DNA from: a virus
Lineage: Duplodnaviria > Heunggongvirae > Uroviricota > Caudoviricetes
IMG/VR virus record: IMGVR_UViG_2690316152_000014
Strand: one strand, 5' to 3'
Length of the DNA: 14,138 nucleotides
A model generated the notes under the pieces. The model worked only from the letters and a program-made list of their open reading frames with translations, did no database searches and had not been told where the DNA came from. Of the stretch, positions 1 through 14,138 are shown in pieces. Both the position numbers and the translations under genes were made by a program. Position 1 is the stretch's first letter; every line of letters starts with the position of its first letter.

Positions 1-387
1 ATGTTCAATATCATGATTCGTAAATTTGGTGAGATGACTTTCGAGAAAGCTGGTGTTGCTCGTACCGAAGAAGAAGCAATGGCCTTAGTTCTGGTAGCAC
101 TGAGATCATCACCTGAGATTATCGACGCTGAATATGTAGCCGCAGAAGGTGAGATTAAAGAGATTAAAGCGGTGGCTAAGGAATTAGGTGTTAAAGGTTT
201 CCGTAAGCTGAGATTGAATCGTGAGACTTATGTAATCGGTAAACAGGGGCAATATATGGATGAGAATAGCATAATTGTTCTACTGAATAAGATTACCCGC
301 TACGGTTGGAAGATTGAGCAATATAAAACGTGTTTCGAATTATACGAAAAAGGTTTGCTGGATACTCTGACCATCGTTCGCGCTTAA
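1..387 (+). CDS. hypothetical protein (128 aa); may be 5'-partial because the ORF begins at the window edge
   Basis: Open frame from position 1 to a TAA stop at 385-387, followed by a hairpin terminator. No motif recognised. Confidence 0.5.
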   Translation: MFNIMIRKFGEMTFEKAGVARTEEEAMALVLVALRSSPEIIDAEYVAAEGEIKEIKAVAKELGVKGFRKLRLNRETYVIGKQGQYMDENSIIVLLNKITRYGWKIEQYKTCFELYEKGLLDTLTIVRA

Positions 388-400
388 TTAATTTCTAATT

Positions 401-427
401 TGGTGGGTGCAATTCCCACCGCTTTTT
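401..427 (+). terminator. Rho-independent terminator candidate
   Basis: Stem GGTGGG/CCCACC with a 7-nt loop, followed by GCTTTTT, directly after the stop of the first ORF. Confidence 0.5.
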
Positions 428-445
428 AAACTAGGAGAATCAAAC

Positions 446-526
446 ATGTTAGCTTTTATCTCATTCGTGGGAGGTAGTCTCACAACTATGATTAGTCTTT
501 CTTATATTGTCGTTAGTATGGGGTGA
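446..526 (+). CDS. small hydrophobic peptide (26 aa, MLAFISFVGGSLTTMISLSYIVVSMG), not in the ORF track
   Basis: ATG at 446 preceded by AGGAG (433-437) at about 8 nt spacing. Entirely hydrophobic, consistent with a single transmembrane helix. TGA stop at 524-526. Confidence 0.3.
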   Translation: MLAFISFVGGSLTTMISLSYIVVSMG

Positions 527-529
527 GCA

Positions 530-655
530 ATGAAACAATTTCATGATGGCATTTCATCTAAGACATTCAAGAAAGAATATAGCGGCTTGCGTATTGACTG
601 GATGGATTTGATTGGCGCGGTTGTGTTTGGTCTGATTATTAGCATCAACTTTTAA
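530..655 (+). CDS. small membrane peptide (41 aa, MKQFHDGISSKTFKKEYSGLRIDWMDLIGAVVFGLIISINF), not in the ORF track
   Basis: ATG at 530 lies 3 nt after the stop of the preceding mini-ORF and is preceded by GGGGTGAG. Polar N-terminus and hydrophobic C-terminal helix. TAA at 653-655. Confidence 0.3.
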   Translation: MKQFHDGISSKTFKKEYSGLRIDWMDLIGAVVFGLIISINF

Positions 656-671
656 CGATATAAATATATCG
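656..671. promoter_or_regulatory. dyad-symmetric element CGATATA-AA-TATATCG containing TATAAATA; candidate operator or -10 region
   Basis: Inverted repeat with 7-bp arms read directly from the sequence, about 30 bp upstream of the ATG at 701. Confidence 0.3.
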
Positions 672-700
672 TAATTCAAACAACAAGAGGAAATTCTACT

Positions 701-1114
701 ATGAAAAAGATTATCGCTGGTATCGTTCTTGCTATGGGTTTGGTTGGTACTGCTAATGCTAATACCTATTATGTGTGTAATTCCTACTTCGAACATAAAG
801 GAGATGATACACGCTACCTGAGTGATGGCGACCGTTATTATCATGCACCGTCTGGAAAATACCGTGGTTTTATCGGTGTAAAGGTTCGAGTGAATGATGA
901 TAATAGTCAATTTGCTTTCAACGATCCGGTATTTGATAGAACAATCAAAAGCCCGAAACTGAAAGAAGATAAGAACGAGAAAGAAGAATATTATGGTTCC
1001 GAAGATGGTAAGTCTTACATCAAATATCTGCATTCTATAGATGGCGCTCCTATATTTGATGTTAAAAAAGGTGATACATCTTATACCCTGATTAGCTGCC
1101 GTGAAATTCTTTAA
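701..1114 (+). CDS. secreted/periplasmic protein of unknown function, with a cleavable signal peptide
   Basis: N-terminus MKKIIAGIVLAMGLVGTANA has an n-h-c signal-peptide layout and an A-N-A signal peptidase I site, with no lipobox. RBS AAGAGGA upstream. Two Cys in the mature part (CNSY and ISCREIL). Confidence 0.7.
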   Translation: MKKIIAGIVLAMGLVGTANANTYYVCNSYFEHKGDDTRYLSDGDRYYHAPSGKYRGFIGVKVRVNDDNSQFAFNDPVFDRTIKSPKLKEDKNEKEEYYGSEDGKSYIKYLHSIDGAPIFDVKKGDTSYTLISCREIL

Positions 1115-1129
1115 TCTTTAATCACCTAG

Positions 1130-1166
1130 CCCCTATCGTTATAATACACGGTAGGGGCGTTTTTGT
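1130..1166 (+). terminator. Rho-independent terminator candidate (loop holds a TATAAT hexamer)
   Basis: Stem CCCCTATCG/CGGTAGGGG (one G-U pair), 10-nt loop TTATAATACA, then CGTTTTTGTTT. Confidence 0.5.
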
Positions 1167-1177
1167 TTGGAAATGGT

Positions 1178-2860
1178 ATGAAAACTAAACTGTATTCGTA
1201 TATTCGCTTCTCTTCCATGAAGCAAGCAGATGGTAGTTCATTTGAACGCCAGAAGAGAACAGCGAAAGAGATAGCCGCAAAATATGATCTTGAGCTAGTT
1301 ACTTCCTATCAAGATTTCGGTGTATCTGCATTCAAAGGAGCTAACAGTAAAACAGGTGCATTATCTCGTTTTCTGGATGAGATTGGTCGATCCGTTCCGG
1401 TTGGTAGCTGGCTGGTGGTGGAAAACTTAGACCGTATCTCCCGTCAATCTGTTATTGAAGCTCAAGAGCTATTCCTTTCAATCATCCGCAGGGGAATAAC
1501 AATTGTTACTGGTATGGATGGGAAGGTCTATAGCAAAGAATCGGTTAATGCTAATCCCATCGATTTACTATTGAGTGTAATGTTGTTTGCTCGTGCAAAT
1601 GAGGAAAGTCAGACTAAACGCAATCGCACTAACTCAAGCGCACTACTCAAGGTTAAAGCCCATCAGGAGAATCCACAAAATCCGGCAGTGGCAATCGAGG
1701 AAATTGGTCGCAATATATGGTGGGCTGATACTTCATCGGGTTATGTGCTTCCACATCCGGTGTATTTTCCTGTTATCAAGAAAATCGTTGAATTAAAACA
1801 GAATGGTTATTCTAATGGTCGGGTTCTTGATTATCTGAATGAAAGAATCACCCCGCCTAATTACACAACGAACAAAGATACCCCTAAGAAATGGGCGCGT
1901 TCTATGTTAGCCAGGATGTTCTCTAACCGCGCTTTGCTTGGTATCAAAGAGATAACCATTGAAGGTGTGACATATGAGTTAAAGGATTATTACCCACGAG
2001 TGATGGAAGATGCCGAGTTCTATCAACTCAAGAAGACTATAGGACTGAGGTCGTTTTCTTATCCCACTAAGTCTAGTCCTGTTATTACCCTGTTAAGTGG
2101 TGCTGGCTTGCTTCGATGTGGTCATTGTGGGGCAAGTATGGTTAAGAGAAGCGGAGCATCAAAAGAGAGATTAGCCCAATATCGTTATATGTGCGATGGC
2201 GCAGATAGCAGGAGGACTAATTGTGATCATCCAAATTGGGGCTTTCGTGGTGATCAACTGGATAAGGCTGTATTGCAATTGCTGGCTGATAAAATCTGGA
2301 TTGCTGAGGATAAGGCTAATCCGATCCCAGGTATGCAAGCCCAGATTGAAGACATTTCACGCAAGATTGATAACCTGATTAGTCTTTCTGCAATGACAGG
2401 AGCAACGAAGGAACTAGCCGATCAGATTACTACCCTGAATCATGAGCGTGAGACCATCTATAACCAGATTAAGGTAATAGAAGAGAACATGTATTCAGTT
2501 GATTCTCAAGGCTGGGAGAAGCTAGCACAATTTGATTTAGAGGATGTTTGCAGCGAGGAACGGTTAAAAGTTCGATTGAAGATTAAAGAAGCTGTTAAGT
2601 CTATAAATTGTTACAAGATTGATACCAATTATAATCATTTTTTAATGGAGTACATCGACGGGAAGACACAAAGGATAGTGATCGAGAGGTCACGCCGTAA
2701 CAGGAAAGGGAGAATTTTTGTAGACGTGAAGACTATCAATGATAGGCAGATTCTGGAGAGCAACGGGCTTGTTCTGCATCCATGTTTAGACATGCTGACA
2801 GATAAGAACTGGAAACCGGAGGAAGAAATACCAGGTCCATTACAGGAATTTGGAATTTAA
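1178..2860 (+). CDS. large serine recombinase (probable phage integrase)
   Basis: N-terminal resolvase-type catalytic motifs: YIRFSSMKQ (catalytic Ser), SFERQ, and LVVENLDRISR. C-terminal zinc-ribbon cysteines (LLRCGHCG ... YMCDG ... NCDH) followed by coiled-coil-like sequence. Start set to the ATG at 1178; the track's 1163 is a TTG. Confidence 0.88.
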   Translation: MKTKLYSYIRFSSMKQADGSSFERQKRTAKEIAAKYDLELVTSYQDFGVSAFKGANSKTGALSRFLDEIGRSVPVGSWLVVENLDRISRQSVIEAQELFLSIIRRGITIVTGMDGKVYSKESVNANPIDLLLSVMLFARANEESQTKRNRTNSSALLKVKAHQENPQNPAVAIEEIGRNIWWADTSSGYVLPHPVYFPVIKKIVELKQNGYSNGRVLDYLNERITPPNYTTNKDTPKKWARSMLARMFSNRALLGIKEITIEGVTYELKDYYPRVMEDAEFYQLKKTIGLRSFSYPTKSSPVITLLSGAGLLRCGHCGASMVKRSGASKERLAQYRYMCDGADSRRTNCDHPNWGFRGDQLDKAVLQLLADKIWIAEDKANPIPGMQAQIEDISRKIDNLISLSAMTGATKELADQITTLNHERETIYNQIKVIEENMYSVDSQGWEKLAQFDLEDVCSEERLKVRLKIKEAVKSINCYKIDTNYNHFLMEYIDGKTQRIVIERSRRNRKGRIFVDVKTINDRQILESNGLVLHPCLDMLTDKNWKPEEEIPGPLQEFGI

Positions 2861-2896
2861 GCGGCCTAAATCGCTGCATAACGAGATAAACGCTTT

Positions 2897-2917
2897 AAGG
2901 GGTACGTACCCCTTTTT
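2897..2917 (+). terminator. hairpin terminator / perfect 18-bp palindrome AAGGGGTACGTACCCCTT followed by T-run
   Basis: Perfect palindrome at 2897-2914 plus TTT, located 37 nt after the recombinase stop. Confidence 0.45.
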
Positions 2918-2929
2918 AATTTAATTGCG

Positions 2930-3925
2930 TTACGCGGCCTCTAAGGGGCTTAAATCAAGTTCTAGGTCTTCCGGTTCCAACTCGGCTAATGGCATTGAGT
3001 GCATCATAGCGAAATCACGTTCTATATCATCTTCGGTTATGTAGTCTTCTGGGTTGATTTCGAAATCAGCATCAAAATATATTGGTTCGGGCGAATTGTT
3101 ATAAATGTACTCCTGTATGAATTTTTTCACATCATCCATTTTGCTGATTGGTAAAGTTTCAGTATAACCACGAGACATTAATTTACGACTAATCCGCTTA
3201 CCTTTGATGTGTTTTTTGATGCCACTTTCTAAATCACCAGCTTTCCAGCCGCAATCAAACGTGTGTGAATATTCAAGGGATAATATTTCATCGGTGTATC
3301 TTTGAGTTTCATACATTCGACGTAGTGGATTTTTGCGCGTAGTTATACCAAATTTTAAAAATTTTTCTCCTACACGAAAAACATAAAAAATAACTGGTCG
3401 ATGTGTATCTTTGTTCATCAAAGCATGTTGTTTCCCGTTTGAAAGAGCAGTTATAGCGCCACGTATAAGAGGACAAGTTAAACTCCCCCGATTACGACTA
3501 CTAAACAAATCGGCTTTGTTGTATATTTTACCATGACAATTACATTTTAGTTTTAGATGGGTTGTTATTCCTCTGTATGGTTCGGCTAGCCCTAAAACAT
3601 CCCAGCCAATCTTATTAAAGAAATTGGTTGAAACTTGTATGTACTCATGTTCTGTATACATGCAAGGTTTCTTATATGTTGGGTGATGGTCTTTTCCTGT
3701 AAACTTACCCATTAAGACACGTTGTAATAAAGGAGTTTTAACTTTATCGCCAACTTTTATATAAACTTTTGTTCGCTGGAATGGCTTATGGATAGGTAGA
3801 ACGAATCCCCCATAAATCCATCCATTAGATTTACATTGGTCAACAACCATTGATTCATATTCAGATGGGCTTTTAGCCGTTGATTTTTTGATGAAAGGAA
3901 TATCTTTAGCAAAAACGGTTTTCAT
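2930..3925 (-). CDS. Cys-rich GIY-YIG-like (T5orf172-like) putative homing endonuclease, paralog A
   Basis: ATG at 3925 with GAGGA RBS. Segment VIFYVFRVGEKFLKFGITT resembles a GIY-x(10)-YIG signature. Cys/His clusters upstream (LKLKCNCHG, LTCPL). Acidic C-terminal tail. Clearly paralogous to the 5053-6090 protein (shared WIYGGFVLP/LIYHGFVMP, KFGIT/KYGIT, GYTET). Confidence 0.55.
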   Translation of the reverse strand: MKTVFAKDIPFIKKSTAKSPSEYESMVVDQCKSNGWIYGGFVLPIHKPFQRTKVYIKVGDKVKTPLLQRVLMGKFTGKDHHPTYKKPCMYTEHEYIQVSTNFFNKIGWDVLGLAEPYRGITTHLKLKCNCHGKIYNKADLFSSRNRGSLTCPLIRGAITALSNGKQHALMNKDTHRPVIFYVFRVGEKFLKFGITTRKNPLRRMYETQRYTDEILSLEYSHTFDCGWKAGDLESGIKKHIKGKRISRKLMSRGYTETLPISKMDDVKKFIQEYIYNNSPEPIYFDADFEINPEDYITEDDIERDFAMMHSMPLAELEPEDLELDLSPLEAA

Positions 3926-3996
3926 AATAGCGAATCCTCATAAATTAAATTCACTATTATTTATTAGTATTTTTCTTGATAATAAAGATTGTTATT

Positions 3997-4668
3997 ATGT
4001 GTGATATTAAAATTAGCTTCATCAATTATAGCCATGTGAAAATTGATTATTCTCCTTCCATTGCAATGGAATTGAGAGATTATTTTAGCTTTGAAGTGGA
4101 AGGAGCCAGATTTAGTCCCAGATACAAATATTCGGGCTGGGATGGTCGTATTAGACTTTTTACCTATGAAAATTTGATGCCTATTGGCTTAGTTCGAATG
4201 GTTAGCGTGTTTTCAAAAAATATGGGTTATAGTGTTTTGATAGACCCTAGACTTTTGGAGCGGGAAAATGTCGATGAAAAGGAAATCGAAAAATGGTGCA
4301 ATGTCCTAGAATTATATTCTGGTGCTAACAGAGTTACCCCGCACTGGTATCAATCAAAAGCAGTCTTTGAAGGTATTCATCATAAACGTAGAATGTTAGT
4401 TCTTCCTACGTCCGCTGGCAAATCTGCTATCGCTTGTATGTTATCTCGTTGGTACTTAGAGAACTACGAAGGCAAAGTGTTGATCATTGTCCCGACGACC
4501 TCGCTTGTTCTCCAGATGCGGGATGATTTTGTTGATTATCGCCAGTTTCCTTATGAAGCTATTCATACTATCATGAGCGGTACTAGTAAGCATGTAGGGG
4601 ATCGCCTGATTGTTGTCAGTACATGGCAATCCGCTTGTAAACAGCCTCGTGAATGGTTTAAACAATAA
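3997..4668 (+). CDS. uvsW: UvsW-like SF2 DNA helicase, N-terminal fragment (223 aa), stops just before motif II; likely a gene remnant
   Basis: Collinear with the T4 UvsW N-terminus as recalled from memory: N-terminal domain, PHWYQ, Walker A LPTSAGKS, YLENYEGKVLIIVPTT, and WQS..KQPREWF. The ORF stops immediately before the expected DECH box. Start set to ATG 3997 (the track's 3976 is TTG). Confidence 0.7.
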   Translation: MCDIKISFINYSHVKIDYSPSIAMELRDYFSFEVEGARFSPRYKYSGWDGRIRLFTYENLMPIGLVRMVSVFSKNMGYSVLIDPRLLERENVDEKEIEKWCNVLELYSGANRVTPHWYQSKAVFEGIHHKRRMLVLPTSAGKSAIACMLSRWYLENYEGKVLIIVPTTSLVLQMRDDFVDYRQFPYEAIHTIMSGTSKHVGDRLIVVSTWQSACKQPREWFKQ

Positions 4669-4697
4669 AAAAGCGCCTACTATGAGGCGCTTTAATT
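4669..4697. terminator. bidirectional hairpin terminator between convergent genes
   Basis: AAAAAAGCGCCT-ACTATG-AGGCGCTTTAATTTTA: GC-rich stem flanked by an A-run and a T-run, between the uvsW fragment stop and the peptidase stop. Confidence 0.55.
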
Positions 4698-5051
4698 TTA
4701 TCCATACCAGCGGGATTTAGTGGAACGGCTATCAATATGGGTAAAGGTTTTATATTTGCCTAAGCCATATTGATTAGGATATTTGCTATCTAGATACGCG
4801 TGAACAATATCAGGCGAGACACCTTTCACTACAATATCTGCGGCCTTGCCCGTGATATGAATCGAACGAGAAGCACCACCAACTTTCTTATTGTGTGCCG
4901 GACAACGGTTAGCACTGTTAATAACTACTGGTTTCCCGAAGTGTTCGCGTACATCCTCAAGAATTGCCAGTAATTCCGCGTCTACGGTATCTTGTCCGCA
5001 CTTTCCACATTTGCATTCAAATTCCTTGCGAGAAAAATGTTTGCTTAACAT
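4698..5051 (-). CDS. peptidase M15-family protein (zinc D-Ala-D-Ala carboxypeptidase-like); possible cell-wall hydrolase
   Basis: Motifs SANRCPAHNKKVGGASRSIH, GKAADI and FTHID fit the H...D...H zinc site of M15 peptidases. N-terminal CKCGKC cluster. Start is 1 nt after the stop of the upstream paralog-B gene, with a GGGGG SD. Confidence 0.6.
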   Translation of the reverse strand: MLSKHFSRKEFECKCGKCGQDTVDAELLAILEDVREHFGKPVVINSANRCPAHNKKVGGASRSIHITGKAADIVVKGVSPDIVHAYLDSKYPNQYGLGKYKTFTHIDSRSTKSRWYG

Positions 5052-5052
5052 A

Positions 5053-6090
5053 TTACCCCCTATATGTAATTTTATAGTTGTTGGAGTTTTTACAAAAATC
5101 CATTGCCATTTTTCTAATCTGCGCTTCTTTGGTTATGTCACATGTTTCTGTATATCCGTCTGGGATTAGTTCTTTTGGTGCAGCGTGACTTCCTATGTTA
5201 TGTTTTACGGAATATTCTAGGTCATTGGCAACTTTTCCGTCACCGAAAGTTATATACCACAATAACTTGTGAGATAATCCTGACTCTCTTGATTGTTGTG
5301 TGATTCTCTTTTGTGGGTTTAGGTGATTTGTTATTCCATATTTGATATAATCGCCTACTTGCTGGACATAGAAAACACCTGGTTTACTTTTGTTATACCC
5401 ACTCTTAGAACAGCACGGACAACCATCGTTTTCGTAAACCAAACCATACGCAACAATAGTATCTGATATATGGCCTTTTTCACACTTTAGTTTTAGTTTT
5501 GACATAGCCAAAATTGGGGATTTAGGTCGTTTTATTAATTTGAGTCTCTTTTCTTTGCACCCGTCTTCAATTAATCCCAACCATTCGTCGTCTGTGTGCT
5601 TTCTCTTATTAATTCCTCTCTTAATTGACCCACAATGACGGCACCCAGCATCATTGTTTATGATTCTTGTGATTATCGTTTCGTATGTGGTGTTACAACA
5701 AGTGCATTTATATGATGCCTTTGTATCAAGCCCTTTATATTCTTCCAACAAACCAACTAAAACCATCTCTTTACGTTCTAATACATTGCTTGCTTTGGTG
5801 AGAATGGTTTCTTCGTCTCTATTATTTTTCTTTGGTAGTTTTAAAGAATCTCTATAACATTCAATACAAGCACCTTGTTTCTTAAGGGATTTGAATACTA
5901 TCGTTCTTGATGTGTTGTGTTTTTTGCAAGTTACATAAACGTGTGTATATTGACCTTTCCACGGCATGACGAAGCCATGATAAATCAAACCTAATTCACC
6001 ACATCGTTTAATTGCAATTGTTTCATAGTCGTGCGGAGTTTTTCTTTTGAATCCGGTGTAATCGATATATTCAGCAAATAAAACTTCCAT
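5053..6090 (-). CDS. Cys-rich GIY-YIG-like (T5orf172-like) putative homing endonuclease, paralog B
   Basis: Three Cys-rich modules (KRCG..VTCKKH..CIEC; KCTCC..GCRHCG; LKCEKGH..GCPCC), then GVFYVQQVGDYIKYGIT (GIY-YIG-like) and DGYTET. GGGGGA SD upstream of ATG 6090. Confidence 0.55.
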   Translation of the reverse strand: MEVLFAEYIDYTGFKRKTPHDYETIAIKRCGELGLIYHGFVMPWKGQYTHVYVTCKKHNTSRTIVFKSLKKQGACIECYRDSLKLPKKNNRDEETILTKASNVLERKEMVLVGLLEEYKGLDTKASYKCTCCNTTYETIITRIINNDAGCRHCGSIKRGINKRKHTDDEWLGLIEDGCKEKRLKLIKRPKSPILAMSKLKLKCEKGHISDTIVAYGLVYENDGCPCCSKSGYNKSKPGVFYVQQVGDYIKYGITNHLNPQKRITQQSRESGLSHKLLWYITFGDGKVANDLEYSVKHNIGSHAAPKELIPDGYTETCDITKEAQIRKMAMDFCKNSNNYKITYRG

Positions 6091-6100
6091 TAGTCCCCCA

Positions 6101-6128
6101 AATAAAAAAGCGACCGAAATTGGTCGCT
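6101..6128 (-). terminator. Rho-independent terminator ending the post-J cassette
   Basis: On the minus strand: stem AGCGACC/GGTCGCT with loop AATTTC, followed by TTTTTTATTT. Confidence 0.6.
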
Positions 6129-6142
6129 TGTATTTATTCGAG

Positions 6143-6490
6143 TTAAATGTATTGTAGAAGATACCCGGTAAAGCGGAGTCCCTTGATATAGTAGTTAGTA
6201 GTGCCTAGACATACCGCTCGTGTATCGCCAATACAATTGAAGTTGTAAGGATTAACTACATCAATCTCCTGCCCTACACGAAAGCGATACTTAGGACGTT
6301 TAGCGAGTGTCGCAACACAAAACACTAGCCCGTTACCATCATCGCGGATCATCTGCTTGAATTGTTTATGTTGGACTCTCTTCGCCTCAAAATCATAGGT
6401 CATTGATTCAGGGCTAATGCCATTGATAAAAATACCGGAAAGCTGATCGACCGGATAAGTAGGAAATTCAGTGAAAATATTTTTAGCCAT
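6143..6490 (-). CDS. hypothetical protein (115 aa)
   Basis: ORF with a GGGGG SD 7 nt upstream of ATG 6490. Last gene before the terminator. No motif recognised. Confidence 0.55.
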   Translation of the reverse strand: MAKNIFTEFPTYPVDQLSGIFINGISPESMTYDFEAKRVQHKQFKQMIRDDGNGLVFCVATLAKRPKYRFRVGQEIDVVNPYNFNCIGDTRAVCLGTTNYYIKGLRFTGYLLQYI

Positions 6491-6529
6491 GTTATACCCC
6501 CCATAAGTTTCTATGAGGGTATTTATGGA

Positions 6530-7213
6530 TTAAACGTATTTCATGCGTGATTTAATGTGCTTATTGATATGTTCAAGCATCATTACTTCGTTGCTTTCCC
6601 ACGATCCTAGCGTCGAATAACGAGTAGAAATTTTATCCGACTTAACGGCAACAATTCGCTTACTCTGTTTCTGTGTGCGTTTCTCTAAGCGACGTTTTGC
6701 CACCGCCGATCCATTCTTAGCGCGTTTGGTTCGGGATTTCTTAGGCTTGTACTTCTTCATGATAAAAGTCCCTTCCTGGTTCTCTACCTTGATGAAGTTG
6801 CCGTTTTCGATGTTACGCATCATCTTACCGCCTTTGATGGCCTTAATGTTCCCGTGAGAGTCTAAGACCTTACCGTTAGCGATTGGCACTAGCTTATTGA
6901 TTTTGCCACCATCGAAATAGTGTTTCAGATAGTCGTCCTGACTGCCGATCTTCTTGTCCTTATCCCTTGCTCCCTTGATGAAGATTTGGTGTCTGGTCCC
7001 TGATCGGTTCTTGTAGTTGGTATTGCCTACCGCTTGCTGAGTCCATCGAGTAGGTCTATCAACATTCTTGTTAATCTTCTTCTGGAGTGCTCTGGAAGCA
7101 AAGATCGCCCCTTCCCCTATCGCCTTTTCGAATGTATCGGTTGCCTTATCAGTCCATTGGCGTAACGCTTTCTTAGTCCTTAGAGCGTTTCGTTTATTGG
7201 TACTGATTGACAT
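6530..7213 (-). CDS. hypothetical highly basic protein (227 aa, Lys/Arg-rich)
   Basis: GGGGGG SD. Start is 1 nt after the stop of the 56-aa ORF. Long K/R-rich stretches (KKYKPKKSRTKRAKN, KRRLEKRTQKQSKR) suggest nucleic-acid binding or a virion-internal role. Confidence 0.6.
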   Translation of the reverse strand: MSISTNKRNALRTKKALRQWTDKATDTFEKAIGEGAIFASRALQKKINKNVDRPTRWTQQAVGNTNYKNRSGTRHQIFIKGARDKDKKIGSQDDYLKHYFDGGKINKLVPIANGKVLDSHGNIKAIKGGKMMRNIENGNFIKVENQEGTFIMKKYKPKKSRTKRAKNGSAVAKRRLEKRTQKQSKRIVAVKSDKISTRYSTLGSWESNEVMMLEHINKHIKSRMKYV

Positions 7214-7214
7214 A

Positions 7215-7385: not shown

Positions 7386-7405
7386 ATATTCACCCCTTTT
7401 TATTA

Positions 7406-7684
7406 TTATTTTTGTTTGAGTATGTCGAGAACTTGGTCAAATTTAGCATCCATCGCAACCACTTTTTTCTCTATGCCGTGTAGTGTTTGTTCCATTTGGT
7501 AAACACGTTCAGCAATCTGAGTATGGTTGTTCTGCATCGTCTCAAACTTCTGGTTTAACAATGCGTCGCTGGATTCCAATTTAGATAACCTATTTTCAGT
7601 TGCTATTTGATTTCGGTGAAGTCTCCAAAGACCACCACAAATTAAGGCGATAACACCGATACCGCCATATATAATTTCAGTCAT
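7406..7684 (-). CDS. membrane-anchored coiled-coil protein (92 aa); function unknown
   Basis: N-terminal helix IIYGGIGVIALICGGLW, then heptad-like sequence rich in Q/E/K/L. GGGGGCG SD 4 nt upstream of ATG 7684. Confidence 0.55.
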   Translation of the reverse strand: MTEIIYGGIGVIALICGGLWRLHRNQIATENRLSKLESSDALLNQKFETMQNNHTQIAERVYQMEQTLHGIEKKVVAMDAKFDQVLDILKQK

Positions 7685-7726
7685 TACGCCCCCGATATTT
7701 TTATAATTTAATGGCAGAATTATTTA

Positions 7727-7769
7727 GATAAAAATAATCCCGCCTAATCACAAAGTATTAAGCGGGATT
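7727..7769 (-). terminator. hairpin terminator candidate downstream of the J-like gene
   Basis: On the minus strand: AATCCCGCTTAA ... TTAGGCGGGATT stem-loop followed by ATTTTTATC. The long loop lowers confidence. Confidence 0.35.
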
Positions 7770-7787
7770 TATTATTAAATTAAATTG

Positions 7788-10700
7788 TTAACGAATAGAA
7801 ATACCAGAAGTGGCTTTTTTAGCGACCATCACAACAACATCGGTCGCACTACCCGATCTACGGGTTGAAACAGGCCATGCTTTAAACTCTAAAGTCACGC
7901 TACCCTTACCCGCTGGCATGTCTATAACGCTACTGTATGCAATAGGTATTGGTCCGCCTGATTCTAATGCTTTCAGTAAAGTACCATTTTTACGCACTTC
8001 TAAACGCATACGGCTATACCCGGTTCTGCCCGGATTATCACCAGTTCCTGCAATATCGTATTCAGCGCCAGCAACAATAATTGGCGGAATGATGATTTGA
8101 CGGTCAAATTTATGGTCATCATTGATCGTTACGGTAACAGCACCATCAGGAACACCAGCATCACCTAAAGTAGCAGCACCACGAGGAAACGCCTTAGATA
8201 CAGTCTTAACAAAATCACCGCGTACCTGAGTAGCTTCTAACATACCCTTAATAACACAGGATTCGTTAATCGTGACGTTGTTCAGAGTACCGGAATCAGC
8301 CGTGATATTACCTTTGATTTTGGCATTCATGAACGTAGCGGACCCGTTCTTGTTGATATGCCATCCGGTAGATCCGTTCCAGTTGGAAGACTGGATATAG
8401 TTACCGATTTTAGCGTTATCAATTGCACCGTTTACAATCTTGGCGTTAGTGATCGCCCCGTCCTGAATCTTCGCGCTATTAATTGCAGCATTGCCGATTT
8501 TAGCCGTGGTGATTGCCGCATCAGTAATCTGGGCTGTGCCGATTGAGGCATTACGGATCATGGACCAGTCCATATACACCTTGTTTCCTTCGACACCAAA
8601 CGGAACAACACCCGCCGCGCCATCCTGTGGAGCTACCACCAGCTTATCAGCCGTAAAGATGATTTTAGTCGGTTGTGCCGGATCGTTAGTTGCGCTCATG
8701 TGAATACCAGCCACACGACCATCTGCATTAACTGCAAGATTGTATTTGCTGTTAATGGTTCCCTTCAAAGCATCGATCTTAACGTCCGCTTCTTGGTTAA
8801 CACCAGCAATCTTGCCATCCATTTCTACCCGAACTTGATCAATCTTACTTGCGCTTGCTGCCTCACTGGTTGCAATTGCTTGTTTCAGGGTAGTAGCAGA
8901 TGCGCTAACTTCTTTGGTGATATCACCTTTCAATTCAGCTTTAACCTGATCAATCTTAGTGGAGCTAGCTTGATCACCAGAGACAATCAGACTCTTAAGA
9001 GTATCGGCTGAGGCTTGGACCGTCTGTCCTGTTTCAGTAGTGATTTGCTTGTGCATTGCATCAATTTTAGCATCGGCATTTTCGCCAGCTTGAGCAATAG
9101 CATCAGCGATAGTTTCATCTAAGCGATCTTGTAAACCAATCAGGTCTTCCAGTGCTTCTTTGTCCTGATCTTCCCAACTAATCGAAGATTTCATAGACAT
9201 GAAATACGGTTCAGACCAGACAGCATCATCCATGCCGAAAATATCGTAGTGAGCACCACGGATATAATAATCACCATCAGCCAAATCAAAGGAAGTATGG
9301 CTAACACTATTCGTGCTTACTGCCCTTGCATCGGAGAAAGTGTTATCGGTTGCATACTGGATGATTGACCCTGCATAGTCATGTTCTACGTCATCTGTCC
9401 AGCTAACAAACGCAGTATTAAAGCCACCACGCGCACTAAAACCTTTCATCGGCTTATGCTGTGGGTTGATAGCCACTAAACGCGCTGGGGCGCTCTCTGA
9501 GTTGTTATATCCTTTAACCGATACTTCCACCGTCAGTTGACGCGAAAGGCCGTTAAACTGGTTCATATCAAGCGTATAAGTCCATGATTCAGGATCGCGG
9601 GTACGGTACTGAATAGACTTACCAGCCTTGTTAGTAACCTTGATAATGTATGCTTCAAACAGGTCACTAAACTTGTTAGCTTCGCCGTTGATCATCACAT
9701 CTAAGCCTTGCTGGTTATCCCATTCGATAATCAGATCATTACCTTCGAAAGTGCCAGCCGTGCTACCCTGATTTTTGATTCGAATAGTCGGAGTCGGCAA
9801 TTCATAGGTAACAGTAGGATTCTGGTTAATCAGTTCTACCCAATCGGATCGCGCGATGATACCGAAAGCACAAATACGGTAATCGTAAGAACGATCTTTA
9901 GCCAGTGCATTGACATTGAAGATTTGCTGTGAAGTCTGACCCAGCTTAATCCAGTTAGGTGATCCGCTTACACGATAATCAATCTGGAAACCATAACGGT
10001 TAAAATCTTCCGGTGCATCCCATGTCAAAGTAACGTTTTTACCGTAAATCGTCTCGCCAGTTGCCTTAATTCTGAAATTAGTAGGCTTCTGTACTGTCAT
10101 TGAATCCGGTAAACCACTTGGTCTATTGTCTGGAGTTGCCGCATAGTTCAGGTCAGTATAAACCTGAGAATTATATTCTGTAGCGGTGATAGTCATCATC
10201 CCAGCAATACCAGAATCAATCGAGCGATCAATTGCGGTAATACGCCATAAAGAATTATTCAGTTTTAATTCATCATAGGTTACGCTAATAACATCCCATA
10301 CTTCGGCAGTGAATGCGTCAGTAGTCATAAAGCTGATAACCTGAGTGATACGAGATTTATTTCGTTCAATGCTCGCTAGTTTATCAATCTGGTCTTTAGA
10401 CTTAACGAAACGATATTCTACATCCTTAGCAATAATTCGACCATCTGCGCGAACAGTAGCATCGTTTTCAGCATCAGCCGGATAACGTAGCATTTGCTCC
10501 GAATAGTCGATTGATGGTTCTTGATATACCGCGTTAATGGTATTGAAATAACCGTTAGTACCACCAGTTTTAAGGGATACTTTACCCATCATAATATTGT
10601 CTTCATTGAAGGTATGCTTAACAATATCAGGAGCATCCAGTTTCAGAGTAATTCTTCCGAAGGATTCGAACATTACCCCGCCGAAAGTCTGCATTAATCC

Positions 10701-11567
10701 GGTTAAGTTCTCTTTAAAGCTGGCGTTCGGATCACATGCACCGTTTGAATGTAGATCCATCTGGCGTACTTGTTTACGCACTTTCAGGAATGAATCAACG
10801 TTAATGTTTTCAATTGGTACACTAAGACCATATTTTGTATTTGTCAGATAATGGAAAATCTGATCCACGCCGTTAGTGCTTGCCTCAATAGCATTGGTTT
10901 CAAGGTTACGGATTTTAAGGCCGCAAACGTCTACTGTTACCTGGCTATTCGTTTGCAGAATATCAACACCAGCAGCCAGAGATTTGTCATCACGGCGTAA
11001 AACAATACACATGGTCGCAATACCGTTACCCTTGTAAGCATCGGTCCAGTCTGAGCCTAAATGATGTTTAGCCAGTGACAATGCGGTGTTAGGATTCTTA
11101 CCCGTGCGAAACTCAACTTCTAAAACTTTGCGGTATTCGTCTTTAATGTTGCCCTTATCGAGTACACCATCACGGATCGTCATGTTCTTACCGACCAACA
11201 CATTTTTATTATCGATAAAGAGTGCTTTGTAATGGTCGATTTCACCCTCTGCAACAGAAAAGATTTGCACTAACTTATTGTTTTCTTTCTTAGAAATAGC
11301 TTTGTAAACGCAGTTTGTGCCAGTACGGGTAACACCAAAAAGAACGGGTACTACTGTTTTTGGATCGGTTGATGTTCCTAGTGTCACCGCATTATCTGGG
11401 CTTTGTACTTTAGGCGTTTTTGGCGTAGCAGCTACGGAAGCAATCAAGGTCATTGCACCAGCAGCCATACCGATAGCAACTGCGGTCATAACAGAGAATG
11501 TTGCAGCAGCAGCCATCCCAGCAGATGCACCCGCAATAACCGCACCTACTAATACTTCAATTCCCAT
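7788..11567 (-). CDS. lambda J-like central tail fiber / host specificity protein (1259 aa) with an N-terminal extension resembling the C-terminus of tail assembly protein I
   Basis: Size and position after the K-like gene. C-terminal ~200 aa match my recollection of the lambda J receptor-binding region (SGTLNNVTINE, DDHKFDRQIIIP, VIDMPAGKG, VVVMVAKKATSGISI). N-terminal Gly/Ala-rich hydrophobic segment and VVPVLFG motif resemble the gpI C-terminus. ATG at 11567 overlaps the upstream stop (TAATG). Confidence 0.85.
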   Translation of the reverse strand: MGIEVLVGAVIAGASAGMAAAATFSVMTAVAIGMAAGAMTLIASVAATPKTPKVQSPDNAVTLGTSTDPKTVVPVLFGVTRTGTNCVYKAISKKENNKLVQIFSVAEGEIDHYKALFIDNKNVLVGKNMTIRDGVLDKGNIKDEYRKVLEVEFRTGKNPNTALSLAKHHLGSDWTDAYKGNGIATMCIVLRRDDKSLAAGVDILQTNSQVTVDVCGLKIRNLETNAIEASTNGVDQIFHYLTNTKYGLSVPIENINVDSFLKVRKQVRQMDLHSNGACDPNASFKENLTGLMQTFGGVMFESFGRITLKLDAPDIVKHTFNEDNIMMGKVSLKTGGTNGYFNTINAVYQEPSIDYSEQMLRYPADAENDATVRADGRIIAKDVEYRFVKSKDQIDKLASIERNKSRITQVISFMTTDAFTAEVWDVISVTYDELKLNNSLWRITAIDRSIDSGIAGMMTITATEYNSQVYTDLNYAATPDNRPSGLPDSMTVQKPTNFRIKATGETIYGKNVTLTWDAPEDFNRYGFQIDYRVSGSPNWIKLGQTSQQIFNVNALAKDRSYDYRICAFGIIARSDWVELINQNPTVTYELPTPTIRIKNQGSTAGTFEGNDLIIEWDNQQGLDVMINGEANKFSDLFEAYIIKVTNKAGKSIQYRTRDPESWTYTLDMNQFNGLSRQLTVEVSVKGYNNSESAPARLVAINPQHKPMKGFSARGGFNTAFVSWTDDVEHDYAGSIIQYATDNTFSDARAVSTNSVSHTSFDLADGDYYIRGAHYDIFGMDDAVWSEPYFMSMKSSISWEDQDKEALEDLIGLQDRLDETIADAIAQAGENADAKIDAMHKQITTETGQTVQASADTLKSLIVSGDQASSTKIDQVKAELKGDITKEVSASATTLKQAIATSEAASASKIDQVRVEMDGKIAGVNQEADVKIDALKGTINSKYNLAVNADGRVAGIHMSATNDPAQPTKIIFTADKLVVAPQDGAAGVVPFGVEGNKVYMDWSMIRNASIGTAQITDAAITTAKIGNAAINSAKIQDGAITNAKIVNGAIDNAKIGNYIQSSNWNGSTGWHINKNGSATFMNAKIKGNITADSGTLNNVTINESCVIKGMLEATQVRGDFVKTVSKAFPRGAATLGDAGVPDGAVTVTINDDHKFDRQIIIPPIIVAGAEYDIAGTGDNPGRTGYSRMRLEVRKNGTLLKALESGGPIPIAYSSVIDMPAGKGSVTLEFKAWPVSTRRSGSATDVVVMVAKKATSGISIR
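8395..8545 (-). repeat. in-frame tandem short repeats inside the J-like gene, encoding (D/N)(A/G)AI(T/N)x-AKI(G/Q/V) units
   Basis: Protein segment TAQITDAAITTAKIGNAAINSAKIQDGAITNAKIVNGAIDNAKIGN. Matching DNA repeats of GCCGATTTTAGC / CGCGAAGATTCAGGA type were read by eye; coordinates are approximate. Confidence 0.45.
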
Positions 11568-11986
11568 TATTCACCCCCGAATCTATAAACTTGTTCATAG
11601 TCAATGTCTGAAACAGGAACGGTCATCCAGATACCATCTTCGGTAATAAGGCCATAACCGGAATAATGAGGAACTACGGAATAATAATTGCGGTTTCCTA
11701 ACTTGTGAGCGGTAACTAATAAGTCGCCGTCCTGTAAATCATCAGTGACTAATTTGAAATGCTTCTTAATTGGTTGAAGGATGTTTGTATATCCGCTTAA
11801 TTCTTTGCAGACTTTCAAGCCTTCTTCTTTCGTAGAATATTTTTTATAAAGAGAATCATGCAGGTCAGTACCAGCGAGAATATCGATGATCTTACATGCA
11901 ATTAAATTGCAATCATTCTCACCTTGAACGAACTCCTGACCTACTAATGAATTGATATAATCGGTGATAAGCCTAGTTTTTAGCAT
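11567..11986 (-). CDS. tail assembly protein K-like, NlpC/P60-type domain only (139 aa)
   Basis: GENDCNLIACKI resembles the catalytic-Cys motif of NlpC/P60 and of the gpK C-terminal domain; a His lies downstream (PHYSG). No JAMM/MPN HxH motif. Start chosen at ATG 11986 with GGAGG 8 nt upstream; the track's longer ORF (start 12142) overlaps the preceding gene by about 110 nt. Confidence 0.6.
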   Translation of the reverse strand: MLKTRLITDYINSLVGQEFVQGENDCNLIACKIIDILAGTDLHDSLYKKYSTKEEGLKVCKELSGYTNILQPIKKHFKLVTDDLQDGDLLVTAHKLGNRNYYSVVPHYSGYGLITEDGIWMTVPVSDIDYEQVYRFGGE

Positions 11987-12032
11987 GTTGAATACCTCCA
12001 TGCAGTTATTTACTAGGCTTAGGGAGAAGGGA

Positions 12033-12686
12033 TTATTTTTTAGAAGAATGCCACTTGCTTTCTGAGTTCCACTTCCCGGCACGAGAGAAGAATAGATCGT
12101 TCTCGTTTCCAACATAGGATCGGTGGATACCATCGGAAGCATGACTACGGGCGTTTTTATCTAGAACTTCCCAGATACTATTAAGCTGAAATTCTGATTC
12201 GTTTTTACACTCATCATCTTCATGTTCGATGTTAATCCCGATGGAATCGACTACCCCACGGAAAACAGGGTAAGTAGTTTCAACCTTGCCCGTGTTAGGG
12301 TTCAGGAACACCATTTCGATTTTTACATCAGATTTATCGAATTGCTTGTTTCGAATCAGGGTGATGTATTCCTCGCGAACGTTAGAAACGGTTACGTTAA
12401 TCCCGTTGTTGTTGATCTCCTTCTCTTCGGTATTCGATGAGATTTGAAGAAAATCACCCGTTGCGAGATATGTAAAACCGTTGTAGTCCAAATCGAAATA
12501 CCCATCAGTAAGCCGTAGAACGTCCCCTGACGCGGTGACTGCTTCGATAATGTAAAACATCGATCCAGTGGAGAAAAGCTGTGGTAACGTCAATTTAGAC
12601 ACGTTCTGACCTGTCTGGTCGTTGTAGACCTCGATGAAGTCCAGATTAGTGCATAGTTTGCTGAATGATTCCTGAATAGTTGCCAT
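12033..12686 (-). CDS. minor tail protein (gpL position; 217 aa)
   Basis: Synteny between the upstream minor tail protein and the K-like gene. Start ATG 12686 overlaps the upstream stop (TAATG), with GGAG upstream. Unlike lambda gpL there is no C-terminal Cys cluster, so the assignment is positional. Confidence 0.5.
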   Translation of the reverse strand: MATIQESFSKLCTNLDFIEVYNDQTGQNVSKLTLPQLFSTGSMFYIIEAVTASGDVLRLTDGYFDLDYNGFTYLATGDFLQISSNTEEKEINNNGINVTVSNVREEYITLIRNKQFDKSDVKIEMVFLNPNTGKVETTYPVFRGVVDSIGINIEHEDDECKNESEFQLNSIWEVLDKNARSHASDGIHRSYVGNENDLFFSRAGKWNSESKWHSSKK

Positions 12687-13246
12687 TATACATTCTCCAC
12701 TAATTCGAATTTCATCTTGCCAATCTGGGCGATCTTCCAATCGATTTCTTCGGTTTTGAGAAGAAATTCACCCTCAACGTTCTGATACTTGACTACCTCA
12801 CCCGCTAGAACATGCTGACGCAAGTTAGGAAAGAGTTTCATTTCACCACCTGATTTCACGTCTTCGGTGATCGTGTAGATTTTCTTGTGGTTCTCAAACT
12901 GTACAATCGTTCCCGCTTTCAGTGTTCCGGTGAAGTTGGAGAGTCTTACCTTACGCCCACCACGGTCAGTACGAGCAGCAGCCGTAACCATCTGGCGTAC
13001 ATCACCTGTATATTTTGAAAAGTAAGATAGTGGCACACTGAAAGGACGACCAAAAAGGTGACGTGCTACAAATTCTTTTACTTCGTTAATATCCTGAGCC
13101 ATGAAATTAGCTGTAAATTCTGCTTCATAAAAATGAATGCCAGTAAAGCGACGCTGGAACTTACCAGAAATAGATTGCGCCTTGAAGAAAGGCTGTTTTG
13201 ATTTAAGAGTAAAATCTGTGATTTTAATATTCTTGGATTTGAACAT
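12686..13246 (-). CDS. minor/distal tail protein (gpM or Dit position; 186 aa)
   Basis: First gene after the tape-measure-like ORF. Its GGGGG SD lies inside the 3' arm of a 12-bp hairpin. Assignment is positional only. Confidence 0.5.
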   Translation of the reverse strand: MFKSKNIKITDFTLKSKQPFFKAQSISGKFQRRFTGIHFYEAEFTANFMAQDINEVKEFVARHLFGRPFSVPLSYFSKYTGDVRQMVTAAARTDRGGRKVRLSNFTGTLKAGTIVQFENHKKIYTITEDVKSGGEMKLFPNLRQHVLAGEVVKYQNVEGEFLLKTEEIDWKIAQIGKMKFELVENV

Positions 13247-13296
13247 AGAAAAGCCCCCATAGTTTTATGATTATTTATCACTATGGGGGCTTTTAA
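13244..13296 (-). promoter_or_regulatory. intercistronic stem-loop with a 12-bp perfect stem that sequesters the SD of the downstream gene
   Basis: AAGCCCCCATAG (13251-13262) pairs with CTATGGGGGCTT (13281-13292), with an 18-nt loop. Lies between the tape-measure-like stop (13297-13299) and ATG 13246. Confidence 0.55.
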
Positions 13297-14018
13297 TTAC
13301 ATCTTACGACGCTGGACGTCTTCTACATGCTGCGCAACTAATTTAGCATGACGTTTGATAGCATCCATGACCATCTTGTCTGAGCTATTAACGTTGCCGT
13401 TAATGTTCAAAGGCGCATTAACTTCAATCGGCTGAGAGTTGCCGCCTGATTTTTGAGCAGATAAGAAGTCTTTCAAATCACCGTTAGTACGCTGATCAAC
13501 TACTCGTTCACCCTTATCAAGCAACCATGTACCCTCACGCGGGATGTTATCGATACCATCATGCGCCATACCACTAACGTTAGTAGACTTGATGTTAGCA
13601 ATGCTTCCCATGTTCTGAGCAACAGCCAAAGCACTAGCGGCGATCTTCTGTCCTGTGGTTACGTTGGTCGGATCGTTCCATGCATCGGTGGCAGCCGTCC
13701 ACATGTTCACCGTCGCTTGCCCGATAGAGAATGCTTTATGAGCATTAAAAGCCATTTGCATAGCTTTAGTGTTTTCCTGCCCGAAAAGAGTCATTGCAGC
13801 AGAAAAACCACTGTACATATCATCGGCTATTGACTGGCGAGCATCAGCATATTTCTTCTCAATTGCAGCCATCCGTTTTTGATGGTTTTCGTTGAGTTTT
13901 TCTAATGCAGCCATCCGTTTAGCCGGATCATTAATACCATCGATCTTAAGACTTTCGGTCTTATAGTCTTGTTCAGCTTCCGATTTCTCTTTATCGATTG
14001 CATTAAATTTAGCAAACG
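13297..14018 (-). pseudogene. tail tape-measure-like protein, C-terminal fragment; 5' part cut off by an IS insertion
   Basis: The frame stays open upstream of Met 13914 to the IS junction at 14018/14019 and meets a stop only inside the IS (TAG at 14044-14046 on the minus strand). Ala-rich, helical composition and the position upstream of the M/L/K/J-type genes suggest a tape measure protein by synteny. Confidence 0.5.
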
Positions 14019-14138
14019 TGAACCGCCCCGGGAATCCTGGAGACTAAACTCCCTGAGAAAGAGGTAAACAGGATGACTAAAAATACACGTTTTTCCCCCG
14101 AGGTCCGTCAACGGGCAGTTCGTATGGTTCTGGAAAGT
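14019..14138 (+). mobile_element. IS3-family insertion sequence (IS629/IS1203/IS3411-like), left end; continues past the window
   Basis: Starts with TG: TGAACCGCCCCGGGAATCCTGGAGACTAAACTCCCTGAGAAAGAGGTAAACAGG, then an ATG encoding MTKNTRFSPEVRQRAVRMVLES. I recognise this as the IS629-group left inverted repeat and OrfA N-terminus. Confidence 0.8.
14073..14138 (+). CDS. IS3-family transposase OrfA, N-terminal 22 codons (partial)
   Basis: ATG at 14073 preceded by GAGG. Translation MTKNTRFSPEVRQRAVRMVLES is typical of the helix-turn-helix OrfA N-terminus of IS3-family elements. Confidence 0.8.
   Translation, partial: MTKNTRFSPEVRQRAVRMVLES

What the first reader, a model, noticed from the sequence alone, without database searches (positions are those of the whole stretch)
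1..14138. Compositional contrast between the phage-derived DNA and the IS end
By eye the phage-derived portion is AT-rich (spot counts of 60-bp stretches gave roughly 37-47% GC; this is not a measured value for the window), while the terminal IS sequence looks GC-richer. This fits horizontally acquired phage DNA in an enterobacterial replicon that hosts IS629-type elements.
Basis: seen in the sequence. Interest (0 to 1): 0.3.

Follow-up and report, generated by a model that had tools for sequence, protein, structure and literature searches.

The report
AT-rich prophage cut by IS629
The window is the end of a draft E. coli contig holding the left arm of an AT-rich prophage (40.7% GC) whose tape-measure gene is interrupted by an IS629 insertion sequence; the compositional contrast is real but ordinary.

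Summary
Measured GC is 40.8% for the window and 40.7% for the phage part (1-14018). The IS part is only 120 bp (14019-14138) and has 50.0% GC.

On those 120 bp the contrast is marginal. About 3% of phage 120-bp windows are as GC-rich, the binomial p is 0.025, and unbiased segmentation does not find the junction. Full-length copies identical to the visible IS end are 1310 bp and 53.3% GC, so the direction is right.

The strong contrast lies just outside the window. In a 100%-identical IS-free prophage in another E. coli assembly, GC drops from 52.3% (lacIZYA-codA-codB') to 40.4% within about 250 bp. Window position 1 lies 48 bp inside that boundary.

The window is the last 14,138 bp of contig CYBG01000025.1 (GCA_001285145.1). 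That contig stops 121 bp into the IS, a typical assembly break in a repeat.

The element is a siphovirus-type prophage with a large serine recombinase, inserted in codB. It is rare (60 of 5426 complete E. coli genomes, always chromosomal) and has no close deposited phage. The IS is O157-type IS629, found in over 3500 of those genomes.

The parts
1..14018 (.). Left arm of an AT-rich prophage (40.7% GC). Position 1 lies 48 bp inside the prophage/codB junction seen in the identical IS-free prophage.
   Evidence: GC. 100% identity to L012 10001-20387 and to L004. K-12 codB homology ends at L012 9952.
1..387 (+). Hypothetical phage protein (phrog_14908), GC 40.3%
701..1114 (+). Hypothetical protein, GC 37.2%, GC3 0.30
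1163..2860 (+). Large serine recombinase, the prophage integrase (Resolvase + Recombinase + Zn_ribbon_recom domains). It is called as 560 aa in relatives.
   Evidence: Pfam E-values 1.3e-15, 3.7e-8 and 1.3e-11; gene calls.
2930..3925 (-). Endonuclease-like ORF A (phrog_681), a low-GC gene (36.3%, GC3 0.29)
3976..4668 (+). Truncated UvsW-type helicase (UvsW_N + ResIII; 230 of about 497 aa). Bases 4216-4666 are 85% identical to uvsW of T4-like Krischvirus phages.
4698..5051 (-). Peptidase M15 (D-Ala-D-Ala carboxypeptidase-type) endolysin
   Evidence: Pfam PF08291, E=1e-29
5053..6090 (-). Endonuclease-like ORF B (phrog_681, CapR domain), the lowest-GC gene (35.6%). It is a distant paralog of ORF A.
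6143..7684 (-). Three hypothetical ORFs (6143-6490, 6530-7213, 7406-7684). The only significant GC change point in the window (~6588) falls here.
7788..11567 (-). Tail-tip / host-specificity J-type protein (1259 aa). The C-terminal receptor-binding domain is about 60% identical to lambda/434 J.
11567..12142 (-). DUF6950 tail-associated protein
12033..12740 (-). Baseplate-hub-like protein (weak Phage_phiJL001_Gp84_N match, below Pfam cutoff)
12686..13246 (-). Distal tail protein (phrog_1302)
13297..14018 (-). C-terminal remnant of the tape-measure gene (809 aa when intact), cut by the IS at 14018|14019
   Evidence: phrog_1506 E=1.4e-35. Intact gene and empty site ...AGCAAACG|GGCTATTT... in L004.
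14019..14138 (+). Left end of IS629 (IS3 family): terminal inverted repeat starting TGAACCGCCCCGGG, then the first 22 codons of orfA from 14073 (MTKNTRFSPEVRQRAVRMVLES). GC is 50.0%. The source contig ends one base further on.

Best explanation
The window is the last 14.1 kb of a short-read draft contig from an E. coli strain. It holds the left arm of a temperate siphovirus-type prophage (37.9 kb in the one complete-genome relative measured), running from 48 bp inside the attachment junction to three quarters of the way through the tail genes. A large serine recombinase inserted this prophage into the chromosomal codB gene.

The prophage keeps its own lineage composition of about 41% GC with AT-rich third codon positions. 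That is roughly 10-12 points below the surrounding chromosome. Inside the prophage, the integrase/accessory/lysis half (38.7%) is a little AT-richer than the tail half (42.7%). The two endonuclease-like genes and a divergent intergenic region form the deepest troughs.

Later, a copy of IS629 transposed into the tape-measure gene. IS629 is a 1310-bp IS3-family element with 53% GC, multicopy in many E. coli. The insertion truncates a gene essential for tail assembly and so probably makes the prophage defective. Because the IS is a repeat, the assembler stopped 121 bp into it, which is why only 120 bp of IS are visible.

Shown: composition values, gene content, identity of the IS, the empty site, the chromosomal context in identical prophages, and the contig end. 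Inferred: the order of events, loss of phage viability, and that the source strain has the same codB context.
For: Composition: window 40.8%, phage part 40.7%, IS end 50.0%, full IS 53.3%.

GC step: 52.3% to 40.4% at the codB junction of the 100%-identical prophage. The relative in strain E275a spans 37.9 kb between the two hicB halves at 42.0% GC, against 49.4% in its flanks. For 1-kb windows, phage mean is 40.8% and host mean 50.4%, Mann-Whitney p=2.6e-8; no 14-kb host window falls below 47.7%.

Signatures: dinucleotide delta* is 101-119 (phage-host), 30 (host-host) and 46 (phage-phage). Tetranucleotide r is 0.65, 0.94 and 0.82 respectively.

Gene content.

Insertion: the IS-free allele has an intact 809-aa tape measure and the exact empty site.

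Source: contig GCA_001285145.1 CYBG01000025.1 matches window 3297-14138 at 100% and ends one base beyond the window.

IS identity and abundance. IS629 is preferentially found in prophages, 62% of copies in O157:H7 genomes (PMC3271280).
Against: Only one IS junction is visible. A simple insertion cannot be told apart from an IS-mediated deletion or inversion end point.

The source contig's own upstream flank was not retrieved, so the codB context is inferred from 100%-identical prophages in other assemblies.

The in-window IS/phage contrast on its own is only marginally significant (p about 0.03).

The IS dinucleotide signature is not host-like (delta* 123 versus host, 73 versus phage), although 1310 bp is a small sample. 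The statement that the IS has host-like composition therefore holds for GC only.
Confidence: 0.9

Rival explanations
1. There is no real compositional contrast at the IS junction. The slightly higher GC of the last 120 bp is a sampling fluctuation of the kind seen throughout the phage DNA.
For: At 60-120 bp the GC scatter of the phage part is essentially binomial (ratios 0.99 and 1.14). About 3% of phage 120-bp windows reach 50%. Segmentation does not call the junction, and a forced cut gives G=4.15. Phage stretches at 8451-8700 and 13501-13700 reach 51-53% over 200 bp.
Against: The 120 bp are identical to the end of an element whose full 1310 bp have 53.3% GC, with a lowest 120-bp window of 45%. 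The difference in underlying composition is therefore real, even though the window samples too little of it.
Confidence: 0.1
2. The low GC marks a recent transfer from a low-GC donor genus such as Proteus or Providencia, rather than the stable composition of a phage lineage long resident in E. coli.
For: None directly. A 10-12 point GC deficit with no sign of amelioration is what a recent import would look like.
Against: Relatives at 85-93% nucleotide identity occur in 60 complete E. coli genomes from varied hosts and sites. Integration sites differ (codB versus hicB) and the recombinase regions are only 83% identical, which implies long diversification within E. coli. The one-genome-per-species scan found no close relative of the tail-tip protein in any other species. 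The receptor-binding domain is about 60% identical to lambda/434 J. Temperate phages being AT-richer than their hosts is a general pattern (own knowledge: Rocha and Danchin 2002).
Confidence: 0.08
3. The phage-IS junction is an assembly artefact (a chimeric join at a contig end), not a true transposition into the tape-measure gene.
For: The junction lies 121 bp from a contig end in a short-read draft, and no second junction was seen.
Against: Phage sequence stops and IS sequence starts exactly at the first base (TG...) of the IS terminal inverted repeat. A real transposition predicts this; a random chimera would rarely produce it. Contigs ending a read or k-mer length into a multicopy IS are the normal signature of a genuine IS insertion.
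Confidence: 0.03
4. The window comes from a plasmid or phage-plasmid, not from a chromosome.
For: The same IS is common on plasmids, with 6150 plasmid places.
Against: No plasmid in PLSDB matches anything except the IS end. All 62 places of the phage part in complete genomes are chromosomal. Every contig that reaches the left flank shows codA and codB'.
Confidence: 0.02

Closest known systems
IS629 (IS3 family; isoforms IS1203 and IS3411) insertions in prophages of E. coli O157:H7 and other STEC
   Same: The terminal repeat and orfA start are identical, and full copies are 1310 bp. Full copies are 99.7-100% identical to copies that are multicopy in E. coli genomes. The insertion is in a prophage gene, the commonest location for IS629 (62% of copies; PMC3271280).
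   Different: The host prophage is not one of the lambdoid Sp/SpLE elements of O157. Only the first 120 bp are visible, so completeness, target duplication and orientation-specific effects are unknown.
Prophages integrated by large serine recombinases within host genes (own knowledge: Listeria A118 in comK, Bacillus SPbeta in spsM, mycobacteriophage Bxb1 in groEL1)
   Same: The integrase has the three-domain large serine recombinase architecture and is encoded about 1.2 kb from the prophage end. Integration splits a host coding sequence: codB here, hicB in the E275a relative.
   Different: The host is E. coli. The att sites were not defined, and no excision factor (RDF) was identified.
Lambda-like siphovirus tail-tip module (tape measure, distal tail protein, hub, J)
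   Same: Gene order and families match. The J C-terminal receptor-binding domain is about 60% identical to lambda/434/mEp460 J.
   Different: The rest of J is at most 40% identical to any deposited phage; the best is Escherichia phage DCP80. No deposited phage matches more than 6% of the tail module at nucleotide level. GC is about 41%, against about 50% for lambda (own knowledge).
AT-rich horizontally acquired islands of Enterobacteriaceae (xenogeneic DNA, typically H-NS-bound; own knowledge)
   Same: There is a sharp GC drop at the insertion boundary, a deviant dinucleotide and codon signature, presence/absence polymorphism, and a mobility gene at the edge.
   Different: H-NS binding or silencing was not, and cannot be, tested here.

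Membership tests
IS629 (IS3 family) | Terminal inverted repeats beginning 5'-TG and ending CA-3' | tested here: met
   The window IS starts TGAACCGCCCCGGG at 14019. The identical full copy ends CCCGGGGCGGTTCA. Only the left repeat is in the window.
IS629 (IS3 family) | Element length about 1310 bp, with orfA and orfB joined by programmed -1 frameshifting | not testable with these tools
   Only 120 bp are in the window or source contig. Full copies sharing the identical 120-bp end are 1310 bp, with a transposase annotated as programmed-frameshift and an AL1L pseudoknot.
IS629 (IS3 family) | High nucleotide identity to named IS629/IS1203 copies | tested here: met
   The visible end is 120/120 identical to L001. 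That full copy is 99.7% identical to copies present 17 times in strain SRCC 1675, 95.4% identical to an IS1203-annotated copy, and 95.3% identical to a partial copy annotated 'IS629 family'. The ISfinder reference itself was not available.
IS629 (IS3 family) | Short (3-4 bp) target-site duplication flanking the element | not testable with these tools
   Only one junction is present. The empty site is known (...AGCAAACG|GGCTATTT...), so the duplication can be read once the other junction is found.
Large serine recombinase prophage integrase | N-terminal resolvase catalytic domain plus recombinase domain plus zinc beta-ribbon | tested here: met
   PF00239 (58 bits), PF07508 (34 bits) and PF13408 (45 bits) are all above their gathering scores.
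Large serine recombinase prophage integrase | Encoded at the edge of the integrated element, next to an attachment junction that splits the target | tested here: met
   The gene lies at 1163-2860, and the prophage/codB junction is 48 bp left of window position 1 in the identical prophage. The hicB halves bracket the E275a relative.
Horizontally acquired prophage | Composition differs from the host replicon | tested here: met
   GC 40.4% versus 52.3% across the junction. delta* is 101-119 versus 30 for host-host. Phage GC3 is 0.29-0.54 versus 0.53-0.65 for lacI, lacZ, lacY and codA. Mann-Whitney p=2.6e-8.
Horizontally acquired prophage | Presence/absence polymorphism with an intact empty site in other strains | tested here: met
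   K-12 has uninterrupted codB. Only 60 of 5426 complete E. coli genomes carry a relative.
Horizontally acquired prophage | Phage structural, lysis and integration genes | tested here: met
   Tape measure, distal tail, J, M15 endolysin and integrase are in the window. Capsid, portal and terminase are in relatives.
Functional (inducible) temperate phage | Intact essential genes | tested here: not met
   In this strain the tape-measure gene is cut by the IS at 14018, leaving the C-terminal ~240 codons (13297-14018); the longest ORF with a start codon is 205 aa (13297-13914) of the 809-aa gene. The uvsW-type gene is also truncated.

The most novel reading that the evidence does not exclude
The prophage belongs to an uncharacterised lineage of temperate E. 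coli siphoviruses. Its features are about 41-42% GC, a size near 38 kb in the one complete relative measured, and a large serine integrase targeting codB or hicB. It has no sequenced isolate, and it trades genes with AT-rich virulent T-even-type phages. Evidence for that trade: a uvsW fragment 85% identical in nucleotides to Krischvirus uvsW, plus UvsY, a gp34-like fibre and a gp38-like adhesin in relatives. On this reading its low GC reflects membership in that AT-rich gene pool rather than recent import from another host.
Probability: 0.35. Interest if true: 0.35.

Novelty: new member of a known kind. Interest (0 to 1): 0.1.

Why it matters
It matters little beyond annotation. The result shows that a compositional hunch was right in substance but rested on 120 bp at a contig end. 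The informative boundary, prophage versus chromosome, lies just outside the window.

Practically, it flags a probably defective prophage (tape-measure gene disrupted by IS629) in one E. coli draft genome, alongside an IS-free, possibly viable twin in another assembly. It also points to a rare AT-rich prophage family with no cultured representative, which phage taxonomists may wish to look at.

Tried and rejected
- An exact search for the phage-IS junction in the one-genome-per-species collection found nothing.
- The tail-tip protein also found no relative there. That collection holds one genome per species, so the source strain is not in it.
- The look-up of the 565-aa recombinase ORF failed because gene callers start it at a later ATG, giving 560 aa.
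- Two attempts to display the source contig's own upstream flank returned only near-identical contigs from other samples.
- Megablast and sensitive blastn against deposited phages matched only the uvsW fragment and a short J segment.
- PLSDB matched only the IS end.
- Rfam and tRNA scans found nothing.
- NCBIfam gave nothing for the two endonuclease-like ORFs.
- Considered and dropped: plasmid origin, free phage genome, and an assembly chimera at the junction (see the rival explanations).
- IS629 target preference for AT-rich DNA was considered as a cause of the juxtaposition. A single site cannot test it.
Full report
**Observation**

The window has 40.8% GC overall. The sequence TGAACCGCCCCGGG, which starts the terminal inverted repeat of an IS3-family element, begins at 14019. 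The 'IS end' is therefore only 120 bp, and 1-14018 is phage DNA. The phage part has 40.7% GC and the IS part 50.0%.

Of the 60-bp windows, 59% fall in it, with mean 40.8%, SD 6.3% and extremes of 18% and 58%. At 60 bp that scatter is exactly what binomial sampling gives (ratio 0.99). Genuine heterogeneity appears only at 250-1000 bp, where the ratio is 1.4-2.0.

The IS end is GC-richer in direction, but within the window the evidence is thin:
- 2.6-3.1% of phage 120-bp windows are as GC-rich; z=1.8 and binomial p=0.025.
- The likelihood ratio for IS-like versus phage-like composition is about 6.
- Jensen-Shannon segmentation does not detect the junction; a forced cut gives G=4.15.
- The only significant breakpoint is near 6588. 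It separates the integrase/accessory/lysis half (38.7%) from the tail half (42.7%).

**What the IS is**

The 120 bp are identical to the left end of a 1310-bp element (L001 2507-3816) that ends with the matching inverted repeat. That full copy has 53.3% GC, and none of its 120-bp windows falls below 45%.

Full copies occur at 100% and 99.7% identity in E. coli, with 17 places in strain SRCC 1675. The element is 95.4% identical to a copy annotated IS1203 and 95.3% to a partial copy annotated 'IS629 family'. IS1203 and IS3411 are isoforms of IS629 (PMC3271280). The window holds the first 22 codons of orfA, starting at 14073. Matches to this IS are present in 3581-4253 of 5426 complete E. coli genomes. 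'IS629-type' is therefore correct.

**What the phage DNA is**

Family searches give this gene map:

| Coordinates | Strand | Product |
|---|---|---|
| 1-387, 701-1114 | + | two small hypothetical genes |
| 1163-2860 | + | large serine recombinase |
| 2930-3925 | - | endonuclease-like ORF A |
| 3976-4668 | + | truncated UvsW-type helicase |
| 4698-5051 | - | M15 endolysin |
| 5053-6090 | - | endonuclease-like ORF B |
| 6143-7684 | - | three hypothetical ORFs |
| 7788-11567 | - | 1259-aa tail-tip J protein |
| 11567-12142 | - | DUF6950 protein |
| 12033-12740 | - | hub-like protein |
| 12686-13246 | - | distal tail protein |
| 13297-14018 | - | C-terminal end of the tape measure |

Relatives continue with tail tube, fibre, capsid-protease fusion, portal and terminase genes.

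**Where it comes from**

The truncated 205-aa tape-measure ORF exists in exactly one contig of the collection, GCA_001285145.1 CYBG01000025.1 (60,832 bp). That contig matches window 3297-14138 at 100% and extends just one base beyond the window. The window is thus the end of a draft contig that broke 121 bp into a multicopy IS.

An IS-free prophage 100% identical to window 1-14018 is present in GCA_050422215.1 (L012 and L004). There the tape measure is intact at 809 aa, and the empty site reads ...AGCAAACG|GGCTATTT.... The phage sequence in the window stops exactly at the first base of the IS repeat. A true transposition predicts this.

**Context and the real contrast**

In every contig that reaches the left flank, the prophage abuts a truncated codB, followed by codA and lacAYZI. 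Homology to K-12 ends about 360 nt into codB, at L012 9952, which is 48 bp before window position 1.

- Across that junction GC falls from 52.3% to 40.4% within about 250 bp.
- A relative about 90% identical, in the complete genome of strain E275a, is bracketed by the two halves of hicB. It spans 37.9 kb at 42.0% GC (41.3% without its own IS2 and IS421), against 49.4% in 45 kb of flanks.
- Over 61 kb of host flanks the 1-kb windows average 50.4%, against 40.8% in the phage part (Mann-Whitney p=2.6e-8). No 14-kb host window falls below 47.7%.
- Dinucleotide distance (delta* x1000) is 101-119 for phage versus host, 30 for host versus host, and 46 between the two halves of the prophage. Tetranucleotide correlations are 0.65, 0.94 and 0.82.
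- GC3 of phage genes is 0.29-0.54. It is 0.53-0.65 for lacI, lacZ, lacY and codA; lacA is itself low at 0.43.
- The IS has host-level GC, but its dinucleotide signature is not host-like (123 versus host, 73 versus phage). Its tetranucleotide profile correlates better with host (0.54-0.57) than with phage (0.32). With 1310 bp these figures are noisy.

**Distribution**

Without the IS, the phage part matches only 60 of 5426 complete E. coli genomes. All matches are chromosomal and none reaches 99% identity. No plasmid matches it.

No deposited phage matches it beyond the uvsW fragment and a short J segment. The best protein-level match of J is 39.9%, to Escherichia phage DCP80, apart from a C-terminal receptor-binding domain about 60% identical to lambda/434 J. 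A scan of one genome per species found no close relative elsewhere.

**Mechanism**

*Shown:* an AT-rich prophage with a serine integrase sits inside codB in strains carrying the identical element. IS629 is inserted in its tape-measure gene in the source strain. The contig ends in the IS.

*Inferred:*
- The integrase catalysed the codB insertion.
- The IS arrived after integration, because the IS-free twin is otherwise identical.
- The insertion abolishes tail assembly and fixes the prophage as a defective remnant.
- The composition is the phage lineage's own rather than a mark of recent import. Diverged relatives with different integration sites are spread through E. coli, and temperate phages are generally AT-richer than their hosts (own knowledge).

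IS629 sitting in a prophage is the usual case; 62% of copies in O157:H7 genomes are in prophages or prophage-like elements (PMC3271280).

**Verdict**

The phenomenon is ordinary: a horizontally acquired AT-rich prophage, an IS insertion, and an assembly break. The only mildly novel aspect is that the prophage lineage has no characterised relative and carries modules resembling those of T-even phages.

Noticed in passing
window 3976-4668 (+); L007 18364-19857: This is a truncated UvsW-type helicase gene (230 of about 497 aa). Bases 4216-4666 are 85% identical in nucleotides to uvsW of virulent T4-like Krischvirus phages, but only 72% identical to the full-length uvsW of a related prophage (L007). 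That relative also encodes UvsY. This suggests gene exchange between this temperate lineage and T-even-type phages.
   Followed up: partly
window 2930-3925 (-) and 5053-6090 (-): These two endonuclease-like ORFs are distant paralogs (25% identity, E=4e-15), both matching phrog_681. They are the most AT-rich genes in the window (GC 36.3% and 35.6%; GC3 0.29 and 0.31). They are absent from the L007 layout, and relatives carry GIY-YIG or NUMOD3 genes at the same locus. They look like free-standing homing-endonuclease-type insertions. The C-terminal motif (FYV..G..K.GIT) resembles T5orf172/GIY-YIG-like domains; that resemblance is from memory and was not tested.
   Followed up: partly
window ~3800-4050: This is the deepest GC trough of the window (25% over 200 bp). 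It coincides with the 50-bp divergent intergenic region between the starts of the 2930-3925 (-) and 3976-4668 (+) ORFs and their 5' ends, and is probably a divergent promoter region.
   Followed up: no
L012 9952/9953 versus L002 17641 and L019 7648: Closely related prophages use different integration targets: codB in the window's lineage and hicB in strain E275a. Their recombinase regions are only 83% identical in nucleotides, so integrase and att specificity appear to have diverged within one prophage family.
   Followed up: partly
L003-L010 (2074-5568 and 6274-6780 in L003): The rest of the prophage encodes a 1164-aa fibre with Gp34_trimer and Peptidase_S74 domains and a Gp38_N adhesin-like protein. 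These are T-even-style fibre modules on a siphovirus-type tail that also has a lambda-like J protein.
   Followed up: no
L012 7048-9063 versus K-12 L018: In strains carrying the identical prophage, lacA lies directly next to codA. The cynR and cynTSX genes that separate them in K-12 are absent, and codBA is only 96.4% identical to K-12.
   Followed up: no
L008, L010, L013, L024, L025: Near-identical copies of this prophage (99.7-100% where measured) turn up on scaffolds from metagenome assemblies (ENA 'METAG' records). The lineage therefore circulates in sampled communities even though it is rare among complete genomes.
   Followed up: no
L002 34820-36048; L019 4398-5510: The E275a relative of this prophage carries its own IS insertions: IS2 next to a truncated tail-fibre gene, and IS421. 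This prophage family is therefore repeatedly hit by different IS elements.
   Followed up: no
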